From positions 1-58,356 of the forward strand of contig JAYENX010000058.1 of assembly GCA_034722435.1 (NCBI GenBank): a DNA stretch of 58,356 bases, in the 5' to 3' direction. Within the stretch, counting starts at the first letter, position 1, and each line of letters starts with the position of its first letter. A model generated the notes under the pieces. The model was not told the DNA's origin, searched no databases, and saw only the letters and a list, made by a program, of their open reading frames with translations. The position numbers were made by a program, and so were the translations under genes. Source of the DNA: Nanobdellota archaeon. GTDB lineage: Archaea > Nanobdellota > Nanobdellia > Woesearchaeales > JAHWHD01. Of this stretch, positions 2,840 through 36,543 are shown piece after piece.

Positions 2840-2942
2840 TTTAGGTAGAATTTATGAGAGGAGTTTATAAATCTTTCTTTGTATTTATAAATTGATTCAG
2901 CCAATAGAAACCTTTATTAAAAGTTGAAAAATGTTGAACAAC

Positions 2943-5900
2943 ATGGAATCTCTCGGTGTGTGCCTGGGTGCTTCAAGCATCAGCATTGTTAAACTTTCTA
3001 AGAATGAAAATGTAAAAGTTGAGAAAGTTATAGTCGTAGCTCATGAAGGAAATCCTAAAGCCGTATTTGAAAATGAAATTAAAAAATTTAAAAATATTGA
3101 TTCAATTGCAGTCACGGGAAGAAAGTTTAGAAAACTTGTCAATCTAAGTTCTATAACAGAACCTGAAGCAACAGAGATTGCTCTGGAATTTGTCAATAAA
3201 AATAGAGCAAGATATAATGCAATTGTTAGCGTCGGAGGGGAGACGTTCATGGTTTATGTTATTGATGAAGAAGGAAAGATTTCTTCAGTTCATACAGGTA
3301 ATAAATGTGCATCAGGTACAGGAGAATTCTTTTTGCAACAAATAAGAAGAATGGATTTATCGGCTGATGAGGCAATCAGCATGGCAAAAGGTGCAGAACC
3401 GCATAAAGTTGCAGGTAGATGTTCAGTTTTTTGTAAAAGCGATTGTACGCATGCATTAAATAAAGGTGAACCAAAAGGTAATGTCACTGCAGGACTTTGT
3501 GAAATGATGGCTAAAAAAGTGTCTGAGCTATTAGCTAAAGTTAATAATGAAAAAGTACTGTTAGTAGGGGGATCGTCCCAGAATTCTGTGATGGTTGATT
3601 TTCTTAAAAAAGATATTCCTGGATTGGTTGTGCCTGAAGAAGCAACATATTTTGAAGCACTAGGTACTGCATTATGGGCACTTGAAAATGAAACTAAAAA
3701 TATTTCAGAAGATTTATTTGTTGAAGGAAGTTCATCATTTGAGTTCTTGCCAAAACTTTCTGATTTTGAAGATATGGTAGAGTTCAAGAATATTGAGTCT
3801 GCAGATGCGGAAGATAGTGATGAATGCATCATAGGGCTCGATGTTGGTTCAACCACGACAAAAGCAATTCTTCTTAGAATTAAAGATGATGCAGTTCTTG
3901 GTTCAATATATTTACGAACAAAAGGGGATCCTGTAAAAGCTTCGCGTGAATGTTATGAAGCACTCCATGAACACATCAAAGGTGCTAAAGTAAATGTAAT
4001 AGGTTTAGGGGTGACAGGTTCAGGGAGACAAATTGCAGGGTTACATGCTTTAACAAAAGGAGTAATCAACGAAATTATAGCTCACGCAACTGCAGCAGTA
4101 TATTTTGATAAAGAAGTAGACACTATATTTGAAATAGGTGGGCAAGATGCCAAGTATACTTACATTACAAACGGGGTGCCATCAGACTATGCAATGAATG
4201 AAGCATGTTCGGCAGGTACAGGAAGTTTTCTGGAAGAAAGTGCGAAAGAGAGTTTAGGTATTGATGTAGAAAATATTGCAGAAAGTGCTTTGAAAGGTGA
4301 TAAACCCCCAAATTTCAATGATCAGTGTGCAGCATTCATAAGTTCAGATATTAAAAATGCAGGACAAGAAGGAATAAGTAAAGATAATATTATTGCGGGT
4401 TTAGTTTATTCTATAGGGATGAATTATGTTAACAGAGTAAAAGGGGCTAGACCTGTTGGAAAAAAGGTTTTCATGCAAGGAGGGGTTTGTTATAACAAAG
4501 CAGTTCCAATTGCAATGGCAGGATTAGTAGGTAAAAAAATAATAGTTCCACCCGAGCCTGGTTTAATGGGAGCTTTTGGAGTTGCATTAGTAATAAAACA
4601 AAAGTTAAACATCGAACTTATGGAAAAACAAATATTTGATTTAAAAGATTTAGCCGAAAGAGAAGTTGAGTATGGAAAAAGTTTTGTGTGCATGGGTGGA
4701 GAAGAAAAGTGTGACAGAAAATGTGAAGTCAACATGATAAAGGTAAAAGATAAATTGTATCCGTTCGGCGGTGCATGTAACAAGTATTATAATTTAAGGT
4801 TTGATATAAAAGTTGACAGCAATAAATTAGATCTTATAGATGTTAGACAAAGATTAGTTTTTGAAAAATATTGTCAAACTAACGGTCAAGGAAAAACTAT
4901 AGGTTTCAATAGATCGTTTCTTATGAATACTTTATACCCTTTATTTCATAACTTTTTTTCTGAACTTGGTATGAAAGTATTAATCTCAGATAAGTCAGTT
5001 CAAAAAGGAGTGGACAGGAAAGGTGCTGCTTTCTGTTATCCCGCAGAGATCGCTCACGGGTTATTTGAAGATATTTTGAATAAAAAACCTGATTACTTGT
5101 TTTTACCTTTAATAATTGAATTAAATGTTGGAAATGTAAATAATTATAAGAAAACCTGTCCGTTTATACAAGGAGAACCTTACTACTTAAGAAGTGCTTT
5201 TAAGGATAAATTGGGTGACAAAAAAATATTGAGTCCAGTCTTGAATTTTTCTAAAGGTTATAATAGTCAAGAAAAGGTCTTTATAAAAGTGGGTAAGGAA
5301 CTAGGATACAGTCCTGCAGATTGTTTGAAAGCATATAAAAAAGCAACAGAGATACAAAATGAATTCACAAAAGAGTGTAAAGAGATAGGAAAAAATGCTC
5401 TTGTTGAACTTGAGAAAGATCCAAATAAATTTGGAATGGTGATTTTTGGAAGACCGTATAACGCATTTGCATTCGAAGGAAATATGGGTATACCGCAAAA
5501 GTTCGCTTCAAGAGGAATTTTAGTTATACCTTATGATTTTCTCCCATATGAAAACGAAAAATGCGAAGACGGAATGTACTGGGCTATGGGCCAAATGATT
5601 TTGAAAGGTGCGTCATTTGTTAAAAGACATAAACAATTGTTCGGAACATTCATTACAAATTTTAGTTGCGGACCTGATTCTTTTGTTGTAGGATACTTTA
5701 GAGAATTGATGGGTGTCAAACCTTCTTTAACACTTGAACTTGATAGTCATACTGCAGATGCAGGAGTTAACACTAGAATAGAGGCAGTAATTGACATCAT
5801 AGAAAGTTATAGAGAATTATACAAAAGAGGTAAGATAAATGATGAAGATAAAAGTTTTGAAGAGTCTAAAATAGTTTATGATAAAGGGAAAGCTTATGTT

Positions 5901-7187
5901 ATAGATTCTAATGGATTAAGAGTAGCTTTAACAGATTCTAGAGTTAAAATGTATCTACCTTCAATGGATAGTTTAGGTTCTGTAGCACTCGCACACAGTC
6001 TAAAAAGTTTAGGCATTGATGCAGATTCATTACCAAGTTCAGATATGGACATACTGAAAAAAGGAAGAGGTAATACAACATGTAAAGAGTGCCTCCCTCT
6101 GCAACTAACAGTAGGAGGGCTTTTGAAACAAATAGAGGGTAAACCTAACAACCAAATAATTGTTTATTTTATGCCTGCATCTTCAGGCCCTTGCAGATTT
6201 GGACAATATAAGATTTTCATAGAAAATGTTTTGAAAAAAAATAAAATTAAAAATGTTGCACTTCTTTCGTTAACTGATCAAGATAGTTACGGAGGTTTTG
6301 GAAACAAGTTTACAATAATTGCGTGGAAAGCGATGATTGCGGCAGATGTTATGACCGACATTTTACACGCTATAAAAGCGTTGGCAATCGATAAGCATGG
6401 CGCTGAACAATTATTCTATAGAGAATGGGACAGAATTTTGAATTGTATAAGTTCCAAAGGTGATTTATACAAACAATTGAAAAGTGCTGCGAAAGTGTTG
6501 AAAAGAATCAAAATTAAAATAGATATTAAAGATGCAAAATTTGTAGCAATTATAGGAGAAATATATGTAAGAAGAGACGAATTATCGCGACAAGGGTTAA
6601 TTAAAAAATTGGCAGACAGAGGTTTTGTTGCGAAAGTAGCGCACATATCTGAATGGATATATTATACAAATTATATAGCTAAAAAAAGTTTAGGTGCAAG
6701 AGATAATGATTCTTTGAAGAAAAGGGCCGGGATATATTTAAGAGAATTTTTTCAAGACAAATTTGAAAATAAAATTAAAAATATACTTGCACAGAGCGGT
6801 CTTTATAGGTTTGAAAAAGAAGATATAGAAAAGACAATAAAGTATGGTTCTAAATTTGTTAATCCGCATTTTACAGGGGAAGCTTTGTTAACAGTCGGGT
6901 TAGCATTAAGAGAAGTTTTACATACTGCACATGGAGTTATTTCAATAGGTCCATTTGGTTGTATGCCTTCAAGAGTTTCTGAAGCGATTCTTACTGAAGA
7001 AATGAACATTGAAGGAAAACGGAAGGCTGCAGGAAATGTTAAAGATTTCGGAATTAAAGAGCTTCCTTTCTTAGCCATAGAAACAGACGGTAATGCATTC
7101 CCTCAATTAATAGAAGCTAGACTTGAAACGTTCTTTCTACAAGCTGATAGAGTATGGGAAAAAATGCAGAAATATAAAAATATTTAA
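2943..7187 (+). CDS. Fused 2-hydroxyacyl-CoA dehydratase activase (two BcrA/D-type ASKHA ATPase domains + DUF2229 + dehydratase-like C-terminus)
   Basis: GNKCASGTGEF, AGRCSVF, GLDVGSTTTK, EIGGQDAKY, MNEACSAGTGSF, FCYPAEIAHG, TNFSCGPDSF, CKECLPLQLTVG, GPFGCMP. Start 2943 is 22 nt from TTTATTAA; the ORF track start is 2931. Confidence 0.9.
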   Translation: MESLGVCLGASSISIVKLSKNENVKVEKVIVVAHEGNPKAVFENEIKKFKNIDSIAVTGRKFRKLVNLSSITEPEATEIALEFVNKNRARYNAIVSVGGETFMVYVIDEEGKISSVHTGNKCASGTGEFFLQQIRRMDLSADEAISMAKGAEPHKVAGRCSVFCKSDCTHALNKGEPKGNVTAGLCEMMAKKVSELLAKVNNEKVLLVGGSSQNSVMVDFLKKDIPGLVVPEEATYFEALGTALWALENETKNISEDLFVEGSSSFEFLPKLSDFEDMVEFKNIESADAEDSDECIIGLDVGSTTTKAILLRIKDDAVLGSIYLRTKGDPVKASRECYEALHEHIKGAKVNVIGLGVTGSGRQIAGLHALTKGVINEIIAHATAAVYFDKEVDTIFEIGGQDAKYTYITNGVPSDYAMNEACSAGTGSFLEESAKESLGIDVENIAESALKGDKPPNFNDQCAAFISSDIKNAGQEGISKDNIIAGLVYSIGMNYVNRVKGARPVGKKVFMQGGVCYNKAVPIAMAGLVGKKIIVPPEPGLMGAFGVALVIKQKLNIELMEKQIFDLKDLAEREVEYGKSFVCMGGEEKCDRKCEVNMIKVKDKLYPFGGACNKYYNLRFDIKVDSNKLDLIDVRQRLVFEKYCQTNGQGKTIGFNRSFLMNTLYPLFHNFFSELGMKVLISDKSVQKGVDRKGAAFCYPAEIAHGLFEDILNKKPDYLFLPLIIELNVGNVNNYKKTCPFIQGEPYYLRSAFKDKLGDKKILSPVLNFSKGYNSQEKVFIKVGKELGYSPADCLKAYKKATEIQNEFTKECKEIGKNALVELEKDPNKFGMVIFGRPYNAFAFEGNMGIPQKFASRGILVIPYDFLPYENEKCEDGMYWAMGQMILKGASFVKRHKQLFGTFITNFSCGPDSFVVGYFRELMGVKPSLTLELDSHTADAGVNTRIEAVIDIIESYRELYKRGKINDEDKSFEESKIVYDKGKAYVIDSNGLRVALTDSRVKMYLPSMDSLGSVALAHSLKSLGIDADSLPSSDMDILKKGRGNTTCKECLPLQLTVGGLLKQIEGKPNNQIIVYFMPASSGPCRFGQYKIFIENVLKKNKIKNVALLSLTDQDSYGGFGNKFTIIAWKAMIAADVMTDILHAIKALAIDKHGAEQLFYREWDRILNCISSKGDLYKQLKSAAKVLKRIKIKIDIKDAKFVAIIGEIYVRRDELSRQGLIKKLADRGFVAKVAHISEWIYYTNYIAKKSLGARDNDSLKKRAGIYLREFFQDKFENKIKNILAQSGLYRFEKEDIEKTIKYGSKFVNPHFTGEALLTVGLALREVLHTAHGVISIGPFGCMPSRVSEAILTEEMNIEGKRKAAGNVKDFGIKELPFLAIETDGNAFPQLIEARLETFFLQADRVWEKMQKYKNI

Positions 7188-13709: not shown

Positions 13710-14029
13710 TGTCCGAAGTTTGTACACAATGTGGATTACCTAAAGAACTTTGTGTTTGTGAAACTATTGCAAAAGAGAGTCAAACAATCAAAGTATATAC
13801 AATCAAGAAAAAATTTGGGAAGAAATATACTGAAATTGAAGGTATAGACCAAAAAGAAATTGATTTGAAAGACTTGGTTAAGAAACTCAAAAGCAAATTT
13901 GCATGTGGTGGAACTGTCAAAGAAGGCAAACTTGAACTTCAAGGTGATCACAAATTGCAAGTTAAAAAGATCCTGGTTCAAATGGGTTTTGCTCCAGAAA
14001 CAATAGAAATTAAACAAAATAGACGATGA
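13709..14029 (+). CDS. sui1: Translation initiation factor aIF1/SUI1
   Basis: CTQCGLPKELCVC, LKSKFACGGTVK...IELQGDH-like motif. Confidence 0.97.
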   Translation: MSEVCTQCGLPKELCVCETIAKESQTIKVYTIKKKFGKKYTEIEGIDQKEIDLKDLVKKLKSKFACGGTVKEGKLELQGDHKLQVKKILVQMGFAPETIEIKQNRR

Positions 14030-14283
14030 TTAAAAATATCCTGAAGCACGAGCTGATTGGTTTGGGTGCAAAGGTTATTGGATCAACAAATAAAGCCGAT
14101 ATCGGCATCAAAGGAATAATTATTGATGAAACAAAAAACACAATCACAATACTCGAAAAAGACGAAAAAAAGAAATTAATTAAAAAAAATATAATACTTG
14201 AAATTGAATACGAAGGGAAAAAAATACATGTTGAAGGGAAATTAATTGCAAAAAGACCCGAAGACAGGATAAAGGCAAAATAA
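14026..14283 (+). CDS. rnp1: Ribonuclease P protein component 1 (Rpp29/Pop4)
   Basis: HELIGL, GIIIDETKNT, RPEDRIK; conserved operon position. Confidence 0.95.
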   Translation: MIKNILKHELIGLGAKVIGSTNKADIGIKGIIIDETKNTITILEKDEKKKLIKKNIILEIEYEGKKIHVEGKLIAKRPEDRIKAK

Positions 14284-14284
14284 A

Positions 14285-14737
14285 ATGAAAAAGAACAAAA
14301 ACATAGGAATTAAGGTTAAGTCTCCGGACAAGACATGTGAAGATCAGTTTTGTCCATTTCATGGAAATTTAAAAGTCCGTGGACAGATGTTCGTAGCTAC
14401 TGTAGTATCAAATAAAATGCAGAACAGTGCAGTTGTTCAATGGGTAAATACTTTGCACCTTCCTAAATATGAAAGAAACATCAAAAGAAAATCTAAAATT
14501 AGCGTTCATAATCCGGGATGTATAGACGTGAAAGAGGGTGATCAGGTAAAAATAATCCAGTGTAGACCCTTGAGTAAAACTAAAAATTTTGTAATAATTG
14601 AAAAGCTCGGAAAGGATAAAGATTTTGTATCTAAAGATGAGTTATATGAAGTTGAAGAAAGGAAAGAGATGGAACGAAAAAAGAATAGAGAAGCTGAAAA
14701 AGAGTCTTCCGAAATTGTAGAAGGTGAACAGGAATGA
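14285..14737 (+). CDS. rps17: 30S ribosomal protein uS17
   Basis: CPFHGNLKVRG, CRPLSKTKNF. Confidence 0.98.
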   Translation: MKKNKNIGIKVKSPDKTCEDQFCPFHGNLKVRGQMFVATVVSNKMQNSAVVQWVNTLHLPKYERNIKRKSKISVHNPGCIDVKEGDQVKIIQCRPLSKTKNFVIIEKLGKDKDFVSKDELYEVEERKEMERKKNREAEKESSEIVEGEQE

Positions 14738-29575: not shown

Positions 29576-31297
29576 ATGGATTTTAGAATATTCGCTAGAG
29601 GTAAAAAGGGTGAGGTGGCTCCAGAAATAAGTGCTTCTGCAGCTGCTACTTTAATTGCTATTATAGGTATATCAATTGTACTGTATATTGTTCTAATTCC
29701 ACCAGAAGCTAGACAAGAAATTTTAGGTGATAAACCTTATACGGCCTTACCAGGTCAAGAAAGTCTTAGTAATGAAATTGTGGAAAGAGAATTAATTAAT
29801 AAAACTCTCGTGCTGGAAAATATTGGAGAAGTTGATTATATTAAACAATCCGAAATTGAACATTCTATACCTGCAATGAATCTTTATACGCGGACTGCGG
29901 GAAGCGCTATAAGAGAAGTAAATTCATTATATATGAAAAACACTTTATTTTCTGAAGAATTTAAGTCTATAGAATTTCAGTTAAAAGATGTACACAACAC
30001 TGAAAATGTTTTGCTTAATTTTCTAGTAAAAGAAGGATCTGGAAGGTTGATTATAAAATTAAATGGGTTCGAAATATTCAATAATGAAATTGATACAATC
30101 AATATAAGACCTATTGAAATAAGTAAAGATATTTTACGAAATGATAATGTACTTGATTTTGAGGTTGAAAATCCAAGTTTCTTATTTTGGAAAGTTAATG
30201 AATATAGTCTAGAAAAAATAACAGTTACAGGAGATTTAACGGATGTTAGTAAAAGAGAGGCATCAGGATTATTTTATGTTGAGCCTGAAGAAAAAAGTAA
30301 TGCTGAAAAAGTAACACTTAACTTTTATCCTGATTGTGATGTCAGAAAAGTTGGAAGAATTAAAGTATCTCTTAACCAAAGAGAAATATACACAGGAATA
30401 CCTGATTGTAACATGTTGAACAAACAAGAGTTTCCACCAGAATATTTAGTAACAGGAAATAATGTTGTTAGTATGTTCGCAGAAAGCGGAGATTATTATG
30501 TTGACAATATCAAGGTAGATGTAGAACTTGAAGAACCTGATAATTACATTTTCTATTTTAATCTGGATGAAGATTATTTTAATGCATTAACAAGTAAAGA
30601 TCCTATATGCGGTGAAGTCGATAATATATGTCCTGATGATTGTGATGCAGATCTTGATAAAGATTGTTGCTTTGAAGCGAGTAGTAAGAATTTCTGGTGT
30701 GATATTGCAACAAGTGAAACTGATGATAGATGTGTAGGTGTGGTAACCTACGATAGATGTAAACTTTGTTCAAGCGGATATGAAGAAAAAGATGGCGATA
30801 TAGCCAAATCATGTAAAAATCTTTGCGGAGATGACAAAGATGGAATTTGTCCAATAGGTTGCACTAATTACGTTGATAAAGATTGTTGTCATACTAAATC
30901 TACGAATTATTGGTGTGAAGACGTTCCAAGAGAGACAGGAGTTCAAGGAGTTTGCAGAGATACTGTTTCTCAAGATGAATGCGAATATTGCCCCGAAGGT
31001 TACAAAAATAAAAATGGTGAAAGTCCAGGATGTCCTTCGAAATCCGATACAGAAATTGAAGATTATAAATTGAAAAGTAAATATGATGTTGATCTTAATT
31101 TAAAATTTGTCCACGATAATGAAGAAAAAGAAGGTGAGCTCATCATCAACAGTCATAAATTTTTCTTTGATACCAGAGATAATTTGTATAGTAGACAACT
31201 AGATCAATTTTTAGAACCTAATTTTAATTCAATACAATTAATACCTAAATCAAGCTTGAATATTGTTGAATTAGAAGTTAAACTAAAAGAGAGGTGA
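29576..31297 (+). CDS. Class III signal peptide (pilin-like) surface protein with two 10-Cys repeats
   Basis: RGKKG|EVAPE followed by a hydrophobic helix; beta-rich body; Cys-rich repeats at 30608-31036. Confidence 0.75.
   Translation: MDFRIFARGKKGEVAPEISASAAATLIAIIGISIVLYIVLIPPEARQEILGDKPYTALPGQESLSNEIVERELINKTLVLENIGEVDYIKQSEIEHSIPAMNLYTRTAGSAIREVNSLYMKNTLFSEEFKSIEFQLKDVHNTENVLLNFLVKEGSGRLIIKLNGFEIFNNEIDTINIRPIEISKDILRNDNVLDFEVENPSFLFWKVNEYSLEKITVTGDLTDVSKREASGLFYVEPEEKSNAEKVTLNFYPDCDVRKVGRIKVSLNQREIYTGIPDCNMLNKQEFPPEYLVTGNNVVSMFAESGDYYVDNIKVDVELEEPDNYIFYFNLDEDYFNALTSKDPICGEVDNICPDDCDADLDKDCCFEASSKNFWCDIATSETDDRCVGVVTYDRCKLCSSGYEEKDGDIAKSCKNLCGDDKDGICPIGCTNYVDKDCCHTKSTNYWCEDVPRETGVQGVCRDTVSQDECEYCPEGYKNKNGESPGCPSKSDTEIEDYKLKSKYDVDLNLKFVHDNEEKEGELIINSHKFFFDTRDNLYSRQLDQFLEPNFNSIQLIPKSSLNIVELEVKLKER
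30608..31036 (+). repeat. Two tandem ~72-aa protein repeats with 10 Cys each
   Basis: Pattern CG-x-D-x-ICP-xx-C-xxxx-DKDCC-...-WC-...-C-...-CxxC-xx-GY-...-C, starting at codons 30608 and 30824. Confidence 0.9.
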
Positions 31298-31323: not shown

Positions 31324-33702
31324 ATGGTAATTGAGTATGCTAAAGCAATCGCTGGCGCTTTAAACCAGTTTGCAAATCCTTTAAGTCAAAGCAATAAACA
31401 AGCGGGCACTACAGGACCTATGTTTGCCATATTGTTTACCATTGTACTATATTATTTCTTACCATATGACCAAAGTATAATTATATCCGTAGTTTTAAAC
31501 ATGACAGTATTTCTATTTTTTATAAGAGGGTTTAGAAAATGGATATATGGCATAGCACTATTTCAGTTGTTTGTACATTATATGATTGGACAGATGAATG
31601 CCGTTCCATTCGCGTTTAATTTGAACGTTATAATTGCTCAGTTCATTATTTGGCCAATATGGCCCATCTTTGGAGTAATTGTTTTTATGGGGGCGTGTCA
31701 AAATGCAGAAAATAGAGGTATCTCATTACCGCCTCTTTCTAACATGTTCAGAATTTTTGTTATCATGATTATAATAGCCATGTTTGTATCTCATTTTTAT
31801 ACACAATTTTATGTACCTATCCCATCTGAAAGATTGCAAGAAGCCAGGGAGTTCAGTCTAAAAACGTGGAACTATATCAACACTAATCTTGGTAATGCGT
31901 TAAAGATTGTTAGGTTTACATTTTCTTGCTGGATGGAGCAAATATACCTTGAACAGAAAACGGATATAGATTCGTGCGTGAAAGAGAAGATGAGCCCCAG
32001 TGATAATGAAACTATCCAGGGAGGAACAGATAAAACTATACAAGAAATTGTGAAAGCAGATTTAAGGTCTCCGCCTTATCTTACAAACGAGCTAGGAACT
32101 GAAGAGGCTTTTGAAGTTGGAGCAGTACTTGACGTATTTAACCCAAAAAAAGAAAAGTTAGATATTGAGGTTAAATGTAAAATTAAAAATGATAGACAGA
32201 GTGAAATTCCTTCAAAAATAACAGGAACTCAAGGAAATGTTGATACTTCCGGAAAAATTGTAACTTATAAAAATGTTGATAGACTTTATTCTGATCTTAT
32301 ATGTATGCCAGAATTAACACCTAATTTAGCTAAAGGATTTTATACAGTTACTTTTGAAGCTACAATAAAAAATGTTGCAACCCAGGCAAAATTAGTAAAC
32401 CTTTTCATGGCGAGAGATGCGTTAACTAGTCTTATAACGGATTATGCAAAAGAAAGAAAGATTAGTGTAACATCTAAAACTGAAGCTAGCGTTATGCGAG
32501 CAATATTCCCAGGGTTAGTGGCAACTTATTATAAAGGGGGTAAGGTTGAATCAAAAGCTGAAGAAAGTTTTCTTAAACCTATGCTAGAAACGCGAAATGT
32601 TCCAATAATAGGATATATTGCAGATGATGAAAGAAGTACAATGGGTCTTAAAGTAGGTGTACAGAATATGGCAAAAGGAACACCAGGAAAAGCTACAATC
32701 TCATTTACGCTCCCTGACGATATGAAGATTGTCCCAAGCGAGTGTAAAGAATACAAGCTTAAAGAAGGAACCACCAATGTTTATGAATATAAAGCAAGAA
32801 TTTCTCTTGATAAATTGAAGTATAATGCTCAACCAACTGCATTACCGAGATGTTTTGTTAGTATAAGCAATCTTAAAACAATAAATCCTAATGTGCCTGA
32901 ACCAAGAACATTTGTAGTTGATTTAGTATACGATTATACTTTAAAGAAAGAATTAATTGTAAAAGTTAAAAGTTATGGGTATGAAGGTTTAACTGCAGTT
33001 ACCTTACCAAGTGTTGAATGGAAAAAATGTCAAGGAGTTTTTCCTTTAAATGTGACAGATATTAAGAGAAGTACGATTAATGAATGTGGCAGAGATTCTG
33101 ATGGAGGTACTGTTAAATTTGATACTTTTATGAAATATTATAAACAAAATGGTCTTGACCAGATTGAAGAGTTAGATGAATTATTGTTATTATCTCTTGC
33201 TCATGTAGAGACAGGATGTGAGCCAAGTCCAGGGAATAAAGAGGGAATAATGCAAGTTCCTCAACAAACCTCAACTGATAATCTTGACGGAATTGAAAAT
33301 ATGGATCGAGCTATTGATTTGGGAAGTAAAGAGATAAAAACTAGATTCGATGATGTTAAAAAATTAGGTTATTCTGGAGAGGATGCAATCAAGTTGGCGC
33401 TTTATGGATATAATAGAGGTAAAGGTTCTATGGATCTTGCTGTAGAATTTATGAAAACAGGTAAAGGAGTAAATGAAGCTATGCTTCTTGCTTGTTATGA
33501 TAAATATGATGCTGGTGGTTATTTGAATAAAGTAACTGGGAAGACTTGTTCAGGTTTTGATAGAAATGCTTGTTGTGGTGCGCCAGGAACTGAAAATGGA
33601 AAGTTCCATTCAGGAGAAGGTCTTGGAGCAAGATATCCTGAAAAGGTCATTAATAAGTATAAAGATGCGTGCGGGTCAACGCCTGGTGGAAGTTTAGCAT
33701 GA
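31324..33702 (+). CDS. Multi-pass membrane-anchored surface protein with C-terminal soluble lytic transglycosylase (SLT/GH23 lysozyme-like) domain
   Basis: About 4-5 hydrophobic segments in the first ~160 aa. SLT motifs in order: LLLSLAHVET (E629), GIMQV (641-645), ALYGYNRG (Y696-G699), YPEKV. Confidence 0.82.
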   Translation: MVIEYAKAIAGALNQFANPLSQSNKQAGTTGPMFAILFTIVLYYFLPYDQSIIISVVLNMTVFLFFIRGFRKWIYGIALFQLFVHYMIGQMNAVPFAFNLNVIIAQFIIWPIWPIFGVIVFMGACQNAENRGISLPPLSNMFRIFVIMIIIAMFVSHFYTQFYVPIPSERLQEAREFSLKTWNYINTNLGNALKIVRFTFSCWMEQIYLEQKTDIDSCVKEKMSPSDNETIQGGTDKTIQEIVKADLRSPPYLTNELGTEEAFEVGAVLDVFNPKKEKLDIEVKCKIKNDRQSEIPSKITGTQGNVDTSGKIVTYKNVDRLYSDLICMPELTPNLAKGFYTVTFEATIKNVATQAKLVNLFMARDALTSLITDYAKERKISVTSKTEASVMRAIFPGLVATYYKGGKVESKAEESFLKPMLETRNVPIIGYIADDERSTMGLKVGVQNMAKGTPGKATISFTLPDDMKIVPSECKEYKLKEGTTNVYEYKARISLDKLKYNAQPTALPRCFVSISNLKTINPNVPEPRTFVVDLVYDYTLKKELIVKVKSYGYEGLTAVTLPSVEWKKCQGVFPLNVTDIKRSTINECGRDSDGGTVKFDTFMKYYKQNGLDQIEELDELLLLSLAHVETGCEPSPGNKEGIMQVPQQTSTDNLDGIENMDRAIDLGSKEIKTRFDDVKKLGYSGEDAIKLALYGYNRGKGSMDLAVEFMKTGKGVNEAMLLACYDKYDAGGYLNKVTGKTCSGFDRNACCGAPGTENGKFHSGEGLGARYPEKVINKYKDACGSTPGGSLA

Positions 33703-34655
33703 AAAAAATAAATTTAATTCTTTCTTTAGTACTAATTTTATTGGTTTTAGTTAGTTGTACAGGGACTAAACTTGCAGGTGTTGAAACCGTAATATACAAA
33801 GGAACTGATGGATTAAGAATGGACATTTTAGAAGGTCTTCCACCAAAAGAAATGTATGTCGGAACAAAAGAGAGTCCGGCGTATTTACAAATAGGTATCG
33901 AGCTCGAAAATCAAGGTGCTTATGATATTACAGAAGGAGTTCTAGCAATCAGTTACGATAGAAAATTTAATGATTTAAGTCAGACGTCAGTTGATACATT
34001 TAACTTAAGAGGGCGAAGTCAACTTACACCCATAGGAGATATAACACGAAAGACGTTCACAGTTAAAAATTATGGATTACCTCCAGGAAGTAAAAGTGTA
34101 TTCGTTATTAGCGGATGTTATAAATATGAAACTACAGCTACTGTCGATGTATGTATAAGTCCTTATTATAGTCCTCTTGTTAAAGTTGGTGAAGATGTGT
34201 GTAAGGCAAAAGATTTTACTAACATTAAATTATCAGGGGGACAAGGGGGGCCTGTAGCTATAACAAATGTAAGAGAAAGTATAAGGCCAACTGAACATGA
34301 TCTAGTTGAGATTGTTTTTGCAATAACTCTCGATAATTTCGGTGACGGTAACGTAAGATCTGAAGAAAATTATGATAAAGAATGTAGAGAGGGTGCTGAA
34401 TCTCTGAGTATCAAAGATATTAAAACTGCACGAATTAAAGAAATATCGTTCTCAGATTATAGTCTAGCTAATAACAGAATTGAATGTTATCCTAAAGAGT
34501 TAAGAGTTGGAGAAAAAACAATAATCTGTTCTGCTAAGATTGATAAAAGAGTTGTGAAATCTCCATATCTAACACCATTAAAAATAAAAATAGGATATGG
34601 ATATGTCTCTCGAGAATATCCTGTAATTAACTTTAAAGAAAGGACTGAGATATAG
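33699..34655 (+). CDS. Lipoprotein-like secreted beta-sandwich protein, paralog 1
   Basis: Signal ending LVSC; YKGTDGL, GGQGGPVAIT, GYGY. ATGA overlap with the SLT gene. Confidence 0.75.
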   Translation: MKKINLILSLVLILLVLVSCTGTKLAGVETVIYKGTDGLRMDILEGLPPKEMYVGTKESPAYLQIGIELENQGAYDITEGVLAISYDRKFNDLSQTSVDTFNLRGRSQLTPIGDITRKTFTVKNYGLPPGSKSVFVISGCYKYETTATVDVCISPYYSPLVKVGEDVCKAKDFTNIKLSGGQGGPVAITNVRESIRPTEHDLVEIVFAITLDNFGDGNVRSEENYDKECREGAESLSIKDIKTARIKEISFSDYSLANNRIECYPKELRVGEKTIICSAKIDKRVVKSPYLTPLKIKIGYGYVSREYPVINFKERTEI

Positions 34656-34695
34656 CCGAAAAACTTATATAATCAATAGAGTGTTTATATATAAA

Positions 34696-35613
34696 ATGAT
34701 AGAAAAGAAGAGTCTATTAATAATTGTATCTTTGTTATTTATAATTCTTATTTCTGCTTGTACAGGTAATCAACAAACAAAACCTGGACTTGAAGAAGAT
34801 TTATACACCGGCACGCAAGGACTTGAGATTAGACTTTTACCAAATGCTCCGCCTGCAAAATTGTTTGCCACACCAAGAACGCAACTTAATTTTATAGTAG
34901 AATTAAGAAACAGAGGAGTTTTTGAAACTTCAGGCCTTTTATTCTTGGGAGGATATGATCCCAATATAATTCCCATAAGAGATTATGCTAAAGATTTTGG
35001 ACCTATTGAAGGAAAAACAGAGTATAATCGTGAAGGAGGATTTCAAACAGTAGATTATCAAGCTTTAGGGATTTTTATGCCAGAAGGTCTTGACAGATTA
35101 AATCAGCCTTTTTCTTTAACTGCAATTTATGATTATGAAACTCTCGCCACAGGAGTTGTATGTATAGATCCTAATCCATATGCACCAGTACAACCTACAA
35201 TTCAAACTTGTATTCCTCAAGATATCACCATGGGAGGAGGACAAGGCGCACCTGTAGCTGTAAGTCTTGTAGAAGTTCAATCTACTGGTGAAAAGGTATT
35301 TTTTAAGATACACGTTACAAATGTAGGGGATGGAAGTGTTGTTTTAGTGGGTGAACGTGATCCTTTCGCAGTAAGGGATGATATTGAACGAATAAATAAA
35401 ATATTCTATGAAGTGACCCTTTCAGGATTATATGGAGAATGTAAACCGGCAAATCCATTAAGGATAGTAAATGAAAGAGGAATAATATTTTGTGAATTCC
35501 CTATACCATTTGAACAAAAAGATCCTTACCAAACAACTTTAAAAGTAAGACTTAGCTATGGATATGTTAGCGAATTAATAACAAATGTACAATTAGTTAA
35601 AACACCAAAATAG
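34696..35613 (+). CDS. Lipoprotein-like secreted beta-sandwich protein, paralog 2
   Basis: Signal ending ISAC; YTGTQGL, GGQGAPVAVS, SYGY. Confidence 0.75.
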   Translation: MIEKKSLLIIVSLLFIILISACTGNQQTKPGLEEDLYTGTQGLEIRLLPNAPPAKLFATPRTQLNFIVELRNRGVFETSGLLFLGGYDPNIIPIRDYAKDFGPIEGKTEYNREGGFQTVDYQALGIFMPEGLDRLNQPFSLTAIYDYETLATGVVCIDPNPYAPVQPTIQTCIPQDITMGGGQGAPVAVSLVEVQSTGEKVFFKIHVTNVGDGSVVLVGERDPFAVRDDIERINKIFYEVTLSGLYGECKPANPLRIVNERGIIFCEFPIPFEQKDPYQTTLKVRLSYGYVSELITNVQLVKTPK

Positions 35614-35628
35614 GAGGATTAAGTTAAA

Positions 35629-36543
35629 ATGAATAAAAAATTAATAGTTCTGATTTCAATTATGATTATTCTAATATTAACAGTAGGTTGTAAACCAAAT
35701 GAAGAGGCACCTATTGGAGAAACAGTATACAAAGGAGGGTCTCAAGGTTTAGTTGCAACATTTGAACCTTTCGGGATTCAAGAAGGGGGAGTGTATACAA
35801 TATTCGATACAGAAACATTCCCAATCGAAGTTTTGGTACAAAATAAAGGTGAACAAGATATAGAAATTGGAGATGCGAAAGTTATTTTAAAAGGGATTAG
35901 TGTTAATGATTTTGAAGGTATTGCAAGTTCTGATTTAACTAACACTGACAAAATTGAAAAAGTTTCAGAGTTTAATCCATTAGGAGGAGAAGTAAGGATT
36001 GATTTTACTCCAAGTAGTGATGCGAAGTATAATCTTGACGTAGTAGGTTTTACCAGTGTTGATGTCTTTGCAGCTTACGAATATCTTTACAAAACTAATG
36101 TAATTGCGCCTAAAGTTTGTTTTAAAGAAGATTTAAGAGATACTTCAATTTGTAATGTAGACGAAGCAAAAGAATTTTCTGTAAGTTCTGCACCAATTAC
36201 GGTTACAAGTGTTGAAGAAGCATCTGCCGGAAAAGGTATAATAGCTTTAGTTTTTACAATTTCAAATGTGGGCGGAGGTAAAGTTACACTCCCGGGAGAA
36301 GATTTTGATGTAAGGTATGGAAGAGTTAGATACGAAATTGATGAGCCTGAAAAATGGGAATGTAAAGCTGCAGGTCTAGAAAATGAAGCTAGGCTAGTAG
36401 ATGGTCAAGCACAAATAAGGTGTAGATTAAACACTCCTTTAGAAGAAGATAGTCTTTATACCAGACAAGTTTCGTTGGCTCTAGAATATAAGTATCAAAG
36501 TATAATCCAAGATACTATCAAGATAAAAGAAAGTCAAGAATAA
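35629..36543 (+). CDS. Lipoprotein-like secreted beta-sandwich protein, paralog 3
   Basis: Signal ending TVGC; YKGGSQGL, SSAPITVT, EYKY. Confidence 0.75.
   Translation: MNKKLIVLISIMIILILTVGCKPNEEAPIGETVYKGGSQGLVATFEPFGIQEGGVYTIFDTETFPIEVLVQNKGEQDIEIGDAKVILKGISVNDFEGIASSDLTNTDKIEKVSEFNPLGGEVRIDFTPSSDAKYNLDVVGFTSVDVFAAYEYLYKTNVIAPKVCFKEDLRDTSICNVDEAKEFSVSSAPITVTSVEEASAGKGIIALVFTISNVGGGKVTLPGEDFDVRYGRVRYEIDEPEKWECKAAGLENEARLVDGQAQIRCRLNTPLEEDSLYTRQVSLALEYKYQSIIQDTIKIKESQE

What the first reader, a model, noticed from the sequence alone, without database searches (positions are those of the whole stretch)
33100..33702. Intact soluble lytic transglycosylase (GH23/SLT) domain in an archaeal membrane protein
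Seen: all canonical SLT motifs in the right order at the C-terminus of the 792-aa protein: LLLSLAHVET (catalytic Glu equivalent, E629), GIMQV (GLMQ motif), ALYGYNRG (AYNxG motif) and YPEKV. A Cys-containing insert (CYDKY...TCSGFDRNACC) lies before the last helix. About 4-5 N-terminal TM segments and about 450 aa of beta-rich spacer would hold the domain away from the membrane. Known: these motifs define enzymes that cleave MurNAc-beta-1,4-GlcNAc, and methanogen pseudomurein (beta-1,3) resists lysozyme-fold enzymes. Inference: the substrate is bacterial peptidoglycan or another beta-1,4-GlcNAc glycan.
Basis: partly seen in the sequence, partly recalled or inferred. Interest (0 to 1): 0.88.

Follow-up and report, generated by a model that had tools for sequence, protein, structure and literature searches.

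The report
Archaeal surface protein with murein-cutting head
A tiny uncultured Woesearchaeota (DPANN) archaeon anchors in its membrane a protein that ends in a lysozyme-like enzyme for cutting bacterial cell walls. Such enzymes are already known from these archaea, but here it is one of many interchangeable wall-cutting heads on a surface complex that nearly every member of the order carries.

Summary

- **Family assignment.** Pfam SLT is below threshold for this sequence (15.6 against 21.3 bits). A 63-member family profile, an AlphaFold model (pLDDT 85.5) and structure searches (MltF Z 11.3, MltC 10.2, goose lysozyme E 8e-7) all place it in GH23. E629 is invariant.
- **Host.** The host is a Woesearchaeota archaeon, not a methanogen. 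No Mur ligase or McrA was found in the 94.5%-complete genome.
- **Target.** Bacterial murein is strongly supported. Homologues of the same membrane/Ig-like scaffold carry SLT, GH73, PF11860 muramidase, M23, Amidase_2, NlpC/P60 or VanY at the same C-terminal position, and the same-genus orthologue carries GH73. About a dozen scaffold homologues have no head.
- **Context.** The gene is second in a five-gene cluster. The cluster's lipoprotein triplet occurs in 295 of 301 genomes of the order. A complex model supports scaffold-lipoprotein binding (0.75 against controls 0.00).

Murein transglycosylases in DPANN archaea are published, so the enzyme is a new member of a known kind, and the swappable-head platform is a new variant. 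This scan has noted the same cluster before on other genomes. Whether the chemistry is lytic transglycosylase or hydrolase, the membrane topology, expression and the target organism remain untested.

The parts
29576..31297 (+). Cluster gene 1: a 573-aa protein with an N-terminal membrane anchor and a Cys-rich repeat insert.
   Evidence: ORF. No Pfam or NCBIfam family. Homologues occupy the same position upstream of the scaffold gene in G028, G382, G432, G142, G314 and G419.
31324..33702 (+). Cluster gene 2: the 792-aa scaffold-plus-head protein, which is the subject of the finding.
   Evidence: ORF. Full-length AlphaFold model has pLDDT 82.7 and pTM 0.49. 105 relatives among 1.84 billion representative proteins fall into two separable modules.
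31411..31812 (+). Polytopic membrane anchor, aa 30-163, with 5-6 hydrophobic helices.
   Evidence: Hydropathy segments and model helices 30-45, 52-66, 71-90, 95-109, 112-130 and 137-163. The topology N-in / C-out with five passes is my inference from the positive-inside rule (loops RGFRK and NAENRG). It was not computed with a dedicated predictor.
32020..32970 (+). Ectodomain stalk: two Ig-like beta-sandwiches (aa 233-363 and 410-549) with a helical insert (aa 364-402).
   Evidence: AlphaFold model. Foldseek matches to tandem Ig-like adhesin and stalk domains such as antigen I/II C123, integrin legs, RbmA and ClfA, E about 1e-5 but low TM-scores. C327, C474 and C510 are nearly invariant. This is the module shared with homologues that carry other heads or none.
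33019..33699 (+). C-terminal head, aa 566-792: a Cys-rich GH23 / lysozyme-like domain, with its core at aa 598-785.
   Evidence: Pfam SLT E 0.012, below the cut-off. Family profile against PDB: goose lysozyme 8e-7, MltC 1.6e-4. Domain model pLDDT 85.5, pTM 0.84. VIA-align: MltF Z 11.3, 4hpe 10.7, MltC 10.2, Slt70 8.2. Atlas SLT clusters at TM 0.54-0.65. It is the only copy in the genome.
33208..33210 (+). Codon of E629, the predicted catalytic general acid.
   Evidence: Invariant in 60/60 family domains. Aligned to the Glu-Ser of goose lysozyme in the profile alignment. It sits at the C-terminal end of helix 619-630.
33699..34655 (+). Cluster gene 3: lipoprotein-like paralogue lp1. Its ATG overlaps the stop codon of gene 2 (ATGA).
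   Evidence: Sequence read. Paralogy to lp2. Complex model with the scaffold ectodomain: ipSAE 0.75 against a best control of 0.00.
34681..35613 (+). Cluster gene 4: lipoprotein-like paralogue lp2.
   Evidence: Family profile A4 is found in 295 of 301 genomes of the order, mostly three copies each.
35629..36543 (+). Cluster gene 5: lipoprotein-like paralogue lp3.

Best explanation
The 792-aa protein is a membrane-anchored, surface-displayed muramidase of a Woesearchaeota (DPANN) archaeon.

**Shown:**
- It has three modules: an N-terminal bundle of 5-6 hydrophobic helices, a stalk of two Ig-like beta-sandwiches, and a C-terminal Cys-rich GH23 (lysozyme-like) domain with an invariant Glu (E629) and the G-[LI]-M-Q, Y-N-R-G and Y-P motifs.
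- It is the second gene of a five-gene cluster (anchored Cys-rich protein, scaffold, three paralogous lipoprotein-like proteins).
- The cluster's lipoprotein triplet is nearly universal in the order.
- The C-terminal position of the scaffold gene is occupied in relatives by at least seven other murein-hydrolase families, or by nothing.

**Inferred:**
- The anchor leaves the stalk and head outside the cell, and the stalk binds the co-translated lipoprotein lp1.
- When the archaeon touches a bacterium, the head cleaves the MurNAc-beta-1,4-GlcNAc bonds of its peptidoglycan, with E629 as general acid.
- The reaction is more likely a lytic transglycosylase (1,6-anhydroMurNAc product) than a hydrolase, because the protein lacks the second carboxylate found after MQV in goose lysozymes.
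- The purpose is local opening or gripping of a bacterial sacculus at the contact site, for attachment, feeding or killing. It is not remodelling of the archaeon's own wall.
- The head is a lineage-variable cassette added to a core envelope complex whose basic function does not need it.
For: **Fold and family.**
- Family profile against solved structures: goose-type lysozymes 8e-7 to 5e-6 and MltC 1.6e-4, with the Glu aligned.
- Domain model: pLDDT 85.5, pTM 0.84.
- VIA-align: MltF Z 11.3 (rmsd 3.9, 153 aligned), 4hpe 10.7, MltC 10.2, and Slt70, MltE and MltD at 7.8-8.6.
- Atlas SLT clusters at TM 0.54-0.65.
- Close relatives pass the Pfam SLT cut-off: P0002 23.1, P0007 23.3 and P0011 27.2 bits.
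- Catalytic and motif residues are invariant over 63 domains.

**Murein as target.**
- Scaffold homologues carry SLT (P0005, P0079, P0057, L020), GH73 (P0004, P0006), muramidase PF11860 (P0042), M23 (P0091, P0067, P0093), Amidase_2 (P0084), NlpC/P60+CHAP (P0074) or VanY (P0090) at the same C-terminal place.
- The GH23-like domain itself is fused elsewhere to M23, Amidase_2/3 and NlpC/P60.
- The same genome also encodes a 2036-aa secreted M23 protein.

**Not the archaeon's own wall.** No Mur ligase and no McrA were found in the 94.5%-complete genome. SecY neighbours are all Woesearchaeota or Nanoarchaeia.

**Extracellular location.**
- Six family-conserved Cys lie in the head and three in the stalk.
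- A relative carries a signal peptide in front of the same domain (L009).
- A five-pass N-in / C-out topology fits the positive-inside rule.

**Complex.**
- Gene 2 and lp1 overlap by ATGA.
- The cluster order is conserved in eight other genomes of the order and on two metagenome contigs.
- Scaffold aa 225-560 with lp1 aa 21-318: ipSAE 0.75 in three runs against a best of three controls of 0.00. That mark was reached by 58 of 80 solved complexes and 2 of 110 mismatched pairs. The runs agree in at least 89% of contacts and the partner pLDDT is at least 83. My own alignments were used, so these counts hold only roughly.

**Published context.** Murein transglycosylases are reported in Woese-/Pacearchaeota (PMC8204110, PMC9723730), and archaeal peptidoglycan hydrolases kill bacteria in experiments (PMC12352652).
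Against: - Pfam SLT is below its cut-off for this sequence. Single-sequence searches against solved structures found nothing, and Foldseek E-values were only 0.017 or weaker.
- No recognised wall-binding domain (LysM, PG_binding, SH3b) is present.
- The model shows six helices in the anchor. If all six cross the membrane and the N-terminus is inside, the head would be cytoplasmic. The topology was not computed with a dedicated tool.
- This lineage has Thr instead of Ser after the Glu. It has also lost a Cys pair that 45-47 of 60 relatives keep (positions 650 and 658). The loops at 634-638 and 648-657 are low-confidence, so the small lobe of the active-site cleft may be altered.
- GH23 also contains chitinases (3w6b, Z 8.5) and hydrolytic lysozymes. 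The best sequence-profile matches are hydrolases.
- About a dozen scaffold homologues have no head, so the cluster's core role is not wall cleavage.
- There are no expression data, no known partner organism, and no explanation of how the head would pass a Gram-negative outer membrane.
Confidence: 0.6

Rival explanations
1. Nutrient scavenging. The surface-tethered enzyme degrades free peptidoglycan debris (necromass) so that the archaeon can take up amino sugars and peptides, with no contact with or attack on living bacteria.
For: The fold and target evidence is the same as for the best explanation. Tethering to the membrane would keep products near the cell. The genome is small and probably auxotrophic (1.3 Mb). 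Degradation of microbial cell components by DPANN is proposed in PMC9723730.
Against: The head sits on a conserved envelope complex next to adhesin-like Ig domains, not on a free secreted enzyme. The rapid swapping of head types between close relatives, with GH73 in the same genus, looks more like adaptation to particular targets than like general catabolism. I did not search the genome for amino-sugar catabolic genes, so this rival is weakly tested.
Confidence: 0.15
2. The substrate is another beta-1,4-GlcNAc glycan and not murein. Candidates are chitin or chito-oligosaccharides, a glycan of an archaeal host envelope, or the archaeon's own surface glycans.
For: GH23 includes a chitinase (Ralstonia 3w6b, Z 8.5) and the wider fold includes GH19 chitinases. 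No wall-binding domain is present. DPANN hosts known from culture are archaea (PMC8204110 abstract).
Against: The alternative heads on the same scaffold include enzymes specific to the murein peptide: Amidase_2, M23, VanY and NlpC/P60. These have no substrate in chitin. The closest structural and sequence matches are murein enzymes.
Confidence: 0.1
3. The head is catalytically weak or dead and serves as a glycan-binding (lectin-like) adhesion module that holds the archaeon on a bacterial wall.
For: Ser is replaced by Thr after the Glu, one conserved disulfide is lost, and the beta-hairpin lobe is low-confidence. The stalk is adhesin-like.
Against: E629 and every other conserved motif residue are intact. 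The protein is 70% identical to P0002 with the motifs kept. Ser-to-Thr is conservative.
Confidence: 0.08
4. The gene is not archaeal. It would be a bacterial contaminant in the bin, or a very recent transfer that has no function in the archaeon.
For: The SLT fold is typical of bacteria and phages.
Against: The gene lies in the middle of a 58-kb contig between archaeal ribosomal, PheRS, pelota-like and RFC genes. The same pelota ... RFC synteny is seen on the contigs of P0002 and P0007 and in G001 and G013. GC and GC3 of the head match those of its neighbours. Contexts of other family members are archaeal (diphthamide synthase and GatD).
Confidence: 0.01

Closest known systems
Murein-like lytic transglycosylase (GH23) proteins of Woesearchaeota and Pacearchaeota (fam00969 in PMC8204110; GH23 genes of Lake A MAGs in PMC9723730)
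   Same: Same phylum-level group, same enzyme fold, predicted extracellular, and the same proposed role of binding or degrading bacterial walls. Giant relatives of this head domain exist (P0087 2723 aa, P0098 2631 aa).
   Different: The published proteins are described as large (up to 3,000 aa) extracellular proteins. The papers I read do not describe a polytopic membrane scaffold, the five-gene cluster, the lipoprotein partners or the exchange of head types. I could not test membership of fam00969 because its sequences are not on hand.
Bacterial family-1 lytic transglycosylases of GH23 (MltF, MltC, MltE/EmtA, MltD, Slt70; Pfam PF01464)
   Same: Lysozyme-like fold (Z 7.8-11.3). A single catalytic Glu at a helix end followed by Ser/Thr, the G-L/I-M-Q and Y-N-x-G motifs, and a C-terminal Tyr.
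   Different: About 15-19% identity. The Pfam score is below the cut-off for this sequence. The domain has six conserved Cys (probable disulfides) and a Cys-rich C-terminal extension (aa 724-783) that these enzymes lack. It is borne by an archaeon that makes no murein, so it cannot be a housekeeping wall-remodelling enzyme.
Goose-type lysozymes (GH23 hydrolases; 153l, 3wyh, 1gbs)
   Same: These are the best sequence-profile matches among solved structures (E 8e-7 to 5e-6), with the catalytic Glu-Ser and GLMQV aligned.
   Different: The Asp that follows MQV in goose lysozyme is Pro646 here, although 25 of 60 family members have Asp there. Hydrolase chemistry is therefore less likely for this member, but it is not excluded.
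Membrane-anchored bifunctional wall hydrolases of Gram-positive conjugative elements (structures 4hpe, 4fdy). My identification of these as CwlT / Tn916-Orf14-like proteins is from memory.
   Same: Second-best structural match (Z 10.7). They combine a lysozyme-like domain with NlpC/P60, as in relatives P0003 and P0020. The idea of a tethered enzyme that opens a wall locally for a surface machine is shared. P0020 lies in a T4SS-like cluster.
   Different: There are no secretion-system genes around the window's gene. The scaffold and stalk are unrelated. The wall being cut belongs to another organism.
Modular archaeal peptidoglycan hydrolases shown to kill bacteria (PMC12352652)
   Same: Archaeal enzymes aimed at bacterial murein, with a patchy distribution, domain shuffling and prominence in Nanoarchaeota.
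   Different: That survey required a recognised wall-binding domain plus a catalytic domain. This protein has no such binding domain and a sub-threshold catalytic hit, so it would not have been counted. It is also chromosomal, in a core-gene neighbourhood, and not on a plasmid or small contig.
Polymorphic toxin / effector systems with exchangeable C-terminal domains (Rhs, CDI and T6SS effectors). This is an analogy from background knowledge.
   Same: A conserved delivery or display part with a variable C-terminal enzymatic cassette that differs even between close relatives.
   Different: No immunity gene is expected or seen, because the producer has no murein. The heads are all wall hydrolases and not nucleases or pore formers. 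No homology to these systems.

Membership tests
GH23 / lysozyme-like superfamily (Pfam SLT PF01464, clan of lysozyme-like folds) | Match to the family HMM at the curated cut-off | tested here: inconclusive
   This sequence scores 15.6 bits against a cut-off of 21.3. The whole-genome Pfam search misses it. The 70%-identical P0002 scores 23.1 bits, P0007 23.3 and P0011 27.2. The family profile hits GH23 structures at 8e-7.
GH23 / lysozyme-like superfamily | Two-lobed, mostly helical lysozyme-like fold | tested here: met
   Model pLDDT 85.5. MltF Z 11.3, MltC 10.2, Slt70 8.2, goose-type lysozyme 8.4. Atlas SLT clusters at TM 0.54-0.65.
GH23 / lysozyme-like superfamily | Catalytic Glu at the end of a helix, followed by Ser/Thr | tested here: met
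   E629-T630. The Glu is 60/60 in the family, and the next residue is Ser in 58 and Thr in 2. It is aligned to the Glu-Ser of goose lysozyme. Helix 619-630 ends there.
GH23 family-1 lytic transglycosylases | Motifs G-L/I-M-Q, A/F/Y-Y-N-x-G and a C-terminal Tyr, in order | tested here: met
   GIMQV at 641-645, YGYNRG at 694-699 and Y771, all nearly invariant in the family.
GH23 family-1 lytic transglycosylases | Non-hydrolytic cleavage giving 1,6-anhydroMurNAc | not testable with these tools
   Needs an enzyme assay with LC-MS of the products.
Goose-type lysozymes (GH23 hydrolases) | Second acidic residue directly after the MQV motif | tested here: not met
   The position is Pro646 here. It is Asp in 25 of 60 family members and in the goose lysozyme rows.
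DPANN murein-like lytic transglycosylase proteins (fam00969 of PMC8204110) | Encoded by a Woesearchaeota or Pacearchaeota genome | tested here: met
   The best SecY relatives are all Woesearchaeota or Nanoarchaeia MAGs, with a top hit of 91% identity. Flanking genes are archaeal.
DPANN murein-like lytic transglycosylase proteins (fam00969 of PMC8204110) | Sequence membership of that protein family | not testable with these tools
   The family's sequences or HMM are not on hand. Giant relatives of the head exist.
Modular peptidoglycan hydrolases in the sense of PMC12352652 | A catalytic domain plus a recognised cell-wall-binding domain | tested here: not met
   No LysM, PG_binding, SH3b or similar domain by Pfam at E up to 1.
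Secretion- or conjugation-associated wall hydrolases (VirB1 / CwlT-like) | Encoded within a secretion-system gene cluster | tested here: not met
   The neighbours are the Cys-rich anchored protein, three lipoprotein-like proteins, a pelota-like protein and RFC. A distant family member, P0020, does sit in a T4SS-like cluster.
Conserved Woesearchaeota five-gene envelope cluster (undescribed in the papers searched) | Gene order: anchored protein, polytopic scaffold, then three or four lipoprotein paralogues | tested here: met
   The same order is seen in G001, G013, G028, G142, G314, G382, G432 and G419 and on the contigs of P0002 and P0007. The lipoprotein family is in 295 of 301 genomes of the order.

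The most novel reading that the evidence does not exclude
The near-universal five-gene envelope cluster of Woesearchaeota is the organelle with which these episymbionts contact other cells. Its scaffold subunit works as a display platform on which murein-hydrolase cassettes (GH23, GH73, muramidase, M23, amidase, NlpC/P60, VanY) are gained, swapped and lost, as in polymorphic effector systems. On this reading the head type records, and perhaps determines, which kind of bacterial wall a lineage can breach. That would mean many Woesearchaeota live on bacteria and not on archaea.
Probability: 0.3. Interest if true: 0.8.

Novelty: new variant of a known kind. Interest (0 to 1): 0.55.

Why it matters
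No Woesearchaeota has been grown with an identified partner, as far as the papers read here say, and whether they live on bacteria or archaea is an open question. A murein-specific enzyme fixed to a core surface complex, with the enzyme type changing between close relatives, gives a concrete handle on that question.

- The head can be expressed and assayed.
- The scaffold-lipoprotein complex can be tested for binding.
- The head type can be correlated with co-occurring bacteria.

The finding also shows that surveys based on Pfam cut-offs and known wall-binding domains undercount archaeal wall hydrolases. The mere presence of an SLT-like domain in a DPANN archaeon is already published and is not surprising on its own.

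Tried and rejected
**Searches that gave nothing**
- Single-sequence phmmer of the head against solved structures: only chance-level rows.
- Word-indexed search for stand-alone relatives of 111-356 aa: none. This is limited by the word index, because HMMER on representative proteins did find short relatives such as P0018 and P0021.
- The search for related loci in genome contigs: nothing with the whole protein. Alignments A2 and A4 had no stretch conserved enough to search with.
- Foldseek against PDB: no row at E <= 0.001, although the top rows were all GH23 enzymes. The VIA-align search settled the fold.
- NCBIfam: no family for any of the five cluster proteins.
- Literature searches for a description of the cluster or of the lipoprotein triplet found none in the held library. 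That is not proof that none exists.

**Ideas tested and not upheld**
The profile-profile comparison gave only a 46-column match at the last beta-hairpin (probability 28%). A structural Atlas row (TM 0.69 by the 319-aa cluster) hints at a shared fold. Not established.
- Methanogen / pseudomurein framing. Rejected: no McrA and no Mur-ligase domain in the genome, and the SecY neighbours are Woesearchaeota.
- Recent horizontal transfer judged by composition. Head GC is 0.357 and GC3 0.185, like the neighbouring genes, so there is no such signal.

**Steps I could not carry out**
- Phylogeny to name a bacterial donor: not done, because the representative proteins carry no taxon labels. The contexts I looked up were archaeal or uninformative.
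Full report
**The observation**

The window holds an uninterrupted ORF at 31324-33702 on the + strand, 792 codons.
- LLLSLAHVET at aa 621-630, with E629 encoded by GAG at 33208-33210.
- GIMQV at aa 641-645.
- ALYGYNRG at aa 692-699.
- YPEKV at aa 771-775.
- The cysteine-bearing stretch at aa 724-751.

For this sequence alone the Pfam SLT model is below its curated cut-off (E 0.012, 15.6 against 21.3 bits, aa 614-703). A single-sequence search of solved structures gave only chance rows. The motifs therefore needed family-level support.

**Family-level support**

A HMMER search of 1.84 billion representative proteins returned 105 relatives. They fall into two separable sets. One set matches aa ~10-565. 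The other matches aa ~598-789 inside many different architectures.

A 23-sequence alignment of the C-terminal set (A2) was used as a profile against the sequences of solved structures. It hits goose-type lysozymes at E 8e-7 to 5e-6, MltC at 1.6e-4 and EmtA at about 8e-3. The Glu-Ser and GLMQV of goose lysozyme align to E629 and GIMQV.

An AlphaFold model of aa 590-792 has mean pLDDT 85.5 and pTM 0.84.
- Foldseek E-values were weak (best 0.017), but its top rows were all GH23 enzymes.
- The Foldseek-independent VIA-align search gave MltF Z 11.3 (rmsd 3.9 A, 153 aligned), the C. difficile wall hydrolase 4hpe 10.7, MltC 10.2, a further lytic transglycosylase (5o2n) 9.5, and MltE, a GH23 chitinase, a goose-type lysozyme and Slt70 at 8.2-8.6.
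- ESM-Atlas neighbours by shape and by language-model features are SLT / Lysozyme_like clusters.

Over 63 family domains:
- E629 is invariant (60/60).
- The next residue is Ser in 58 and Thr in 2, including this protein.
- G641, Q644, Y696-N-R-G699, C724, Y771 and G768 are invariant or nearly so.

This lineage has lost one further Cys pair, at positions 650 and 658, which 47 and 45 of 60 relatives keep. The loops around it are the low-confidence parts of the model.

I conclude that the domain is a genuine, apparently intact member of the GH23 lysozyme-like group. It belongs to a distinct disulfide-rich subfamily.

**Chemistry**

The best sequence matches are hydrolytic goose lysozymes. The best structural matches are lytic transglycosylases. 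In goose lysozyme an Asp follows MQV. That position is Asp in 25 of 60 family members but Pro646 here. No other acidic residue is conserved between the Glu and GIMQ. This favours the single-carboxylate lytic-transglycosylase mechanism for this member. That is an inference from known GH23 enzymology, and only product analysis can decide it.

**Who carries it**

The 58-kb contig encodes archaeal ribosomal proteins, SecY, both PheRS subunits, a pelota-like eRF1-family protein, the RFC small subunit and a primase. The genome is 1.30 Mb in 60 contigs and 94.5% complete. The 80 best SecY relatives among species-representative genomes are almost all labelled Candidatus Woesearchaeota, Nanoarchaeia or Nanoarchaeota. 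The top hit is 91% identical. Some rows carry an automatic 'uncultured Methanosarcinales' label. No McrA and no Mur-ligase domain were found in the genome.

**What the substrate is**

The strongest evidence comes from relatives. Proteins that share the membrane-plus-stalk part (aa ~10-565) end in different murein hydrolases:

| C-terminal head | Proteins |
|---|---|
| Canonical SLT | P0005, P0079 (97 bits), P0057, L020 |
| GH73 glucosaminidase | P0004, P0006 |
| PF11860 muramidase | P0042 (133 bits) |
| M23 | P0091, P0067, P0093 (also seen as L017, L018) |
| Amidase_2 | P0084 |
| NlpC/P60+CHAP | P0074 |
| VanY | P0090 |

- About twelve homologues stop within 30 residues of the stalk and have no head.
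- About fourteen have 110-210-aa extensions with no Pfam match.
- P0004 is 100% identical to the protein of G001, the same-genus genome. Its homology to the window's protein (51% identity) ends at aa ~563, exactly at the stalk/head boundary. Two congeners therefore carry different glycosidase heads on orthologous scaffolds.

Conversely, this GH23-like domain is fused in other proteins to:
- M23 (P0012, L011);
- Amidase_3 (P0016, P0024, P0058);
- Amidase_2 (G028 protein; L009, which also has a signal peptide and a GDSL lipase domain);
- NlpC/P60 (P0003, P0020).

Several of these partners act on the murein peptide and have no substrate in chitin or in archaeal envelopes. The same genome also encodes a 2036-aa secreted protein with Ig-like repeats and a C-terminal M23 domain, plus a small M23 protein. 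The GH23-like domain itself is single-copy.

**Architecture and context**

The full-length model (pLDDT 82.7; pTM 0.49, so domain packing is uncertain) shows these parts:
- hydrophobic helices at 30-163;
- a helical hairpin at 168-223;
- two beta-sandwiches at 233-363 and 410-549, with a helical insert;
- a linker;
- the head.

The sandwiches resemble tandem Ig-like stalks of adhesins, but at low TM-scores, so I read this only as a generic stalk fold.

Hydropathy and the positive-inside rule fit five passes with the N-terminus in and the C-terminus out. The model draws six helices, however, and I had no dedicated topology predictor. The conserved cysteines and the signal-peptide-bearing relatives are the other arguments for an outside location.

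The gene is preceded, 26 nt upstream, by a 573-aa anchored Cys-rich protein. It overlaps the start of the first of three paralogous lipoprotein-like genes by ATGA. The same gene order is found:
- on the contigs of P0002 and P0007, both between pelota and RFC;
- in G001, G013, G028, G142, G314, G382, G432 and G419 of the same order, whatever head the scaffold carries.

A profile of the lipoprotein family is found in 295 of 301 genomes sampled from the order. It is in 221 of 222 high-quality genomes, mostly as exactly three copies. The cluster is therefore a core envelope feature of the order, and the head is a lineage-variable addition.

With a single-sequence query, the head subfamily was seen in only 5 of 401 genomes of the phylum sample, and the scaffold middle in 15 of 301 genomes of the order. 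Both figures are lower bounds, because these parts diverge fast.

A complex prediction of the scaffold ectodomain (aa 225-560) with lp1 (aa 21-318) gave these results:
- ipSAE was 0.75 in three runs, against 0.00 for the best of three controls.
- That mark was reached by 58 of 80 solved complexes and 2 of 110 mismatched pairs.
- The runs agree in at least 89% of contacts, and the partner pLDDT is at least 83.
- My own alignments were used, so the counts hold only roughly.
- The contact uses the conserved loop 519-529 and the helical insert.

This supports binding. It does not show it.

**Claims that rest on unpublished genomes**

- The statement that the GH73-headed orthologue belongs to the same genus, and its synteny (locus L005), rest on G001. 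The protein sequence itself (P0004) came from the protein library.
- The 295/301 tally includes eight unpublished genomes (G001, G341, G449, G517, G453, G485, G265, G352), all of which had matches. Without them it is 287 of 293.

**Comparison with what is known**

- Murein-like lytic transglycosylase proteins in Woesearchaeota and Pacearchaeota were noted by Castelle et al. (PMC8204110, which cites earlier sightings).
- GH23 genes in Woesearchaeota MAGs were read as signs of predation on bacteria by Vigneron et al. (PMC9723730).
- Strock et al. showed that archaeal peptidoglycan hydrolases kill bacteria, and found them in about 5% of archaeal genomes, prominently in Nanoarchaeota (PMC12352652).

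An SLT-type domain in a DPANN archaeon is therefore a known kind of thing. I did not find described in the held library the polytopic scaffold, the near-universal five-gene cluster or the exchange of at least eight hydrolase types at one position. Strock et al. required a recognised wall-binding domain, which this protein lacks, so their survey would not have counted it.

This scan has noted the same cluster on other genomes before, with SLT, GH73 and NlpC/P60 heads, and reached similar readings (also a Micrarchaeia amidase+transglycosylase protein). I saw those notes after my own analysis, and they agree with it.

**Verdict**

The enzyme is a new member of a known kind. The display platform with swappable heads is a new variant of it, and it is moderately interesting because it makes the question of which organisms Woesearchaeota live on experimentally approachable. 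Still untested are enzyme activity and product, membrane topology, expression, and the identity of the target organism.

Noticed in passing
Own genome G000, contig C22:14466-20576 (+) and C22:25816-26379 (+); locus L027:2467-8577 and 13817-14380: A 2036-aa protein with a signal peptide, fn3/Ig-like repeats and a C-terminal Peptidase_M23 domain (52.6 bits), and a separate 187-aa M23 protein. These are further candidate murein endopeptidases in the same genome.
   Followed up: partly
window 33699-36543 and genomes of the order: The three paralogous lipoprotein-like proteins belong to a family present in 295 of 301 genomes of the order, mostly as exactly three copies. It matches no Pfam or NCBIfam family. 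This is a core envelope component of unknown function.
   Followed up: partly
L022:1-18037 and L023 (contigs that carry P0020): A relative of the head domain, fused to TSP3 repeats, a T4SS_pilin-like segment and NlpC/P60, lies in a type-IV-secretion-like cluster (TraC-like, VirB4-like ATPase, three T4SS_pilin genes, a 3D-domain protein). The cluster is beside a TGT+PUA gene of the archaeosine type, so an archaeon may carry a T4SS-like system with its own wall hydrolase.
   Followed up: no
L112:6831-9350 (G273) and L009: A secreted 840-aa protein of a same-order genome combines a GDSL lipase, the Cys-rich GH23-like domain and Amidase_2 in one chain, outside the five-gene cluster. It is a possible envelope-attacking triple enzyme.
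   Followed up: no
window 29576-31297: The upstream 573-aa cluster protein carries a Cys- and Asp-rich repeat insert that its 394-396-aa homologues in G028 and on the P0007 contig lack. This is a second lineage-specific addition to the cluster.
   Followed up: no
window 2931-7187: A 1418-aa BadF/BcrAD-type ATPase + DUF2229 fusion (CoA-enzyme activase-like) lies next to the primase and the ribosomal protein operon.
   Followed up: no
L030, L032, L043 and other rows: Many public MAG records whose SecY is 60-69% identical to this Woesearchaeota SecY are titled 'uncultured Methanosarcinales archaeon', and one is titled 'Alphaproteobacteria bacterium'. These are probably automatic mislabels.
   Followed up: no
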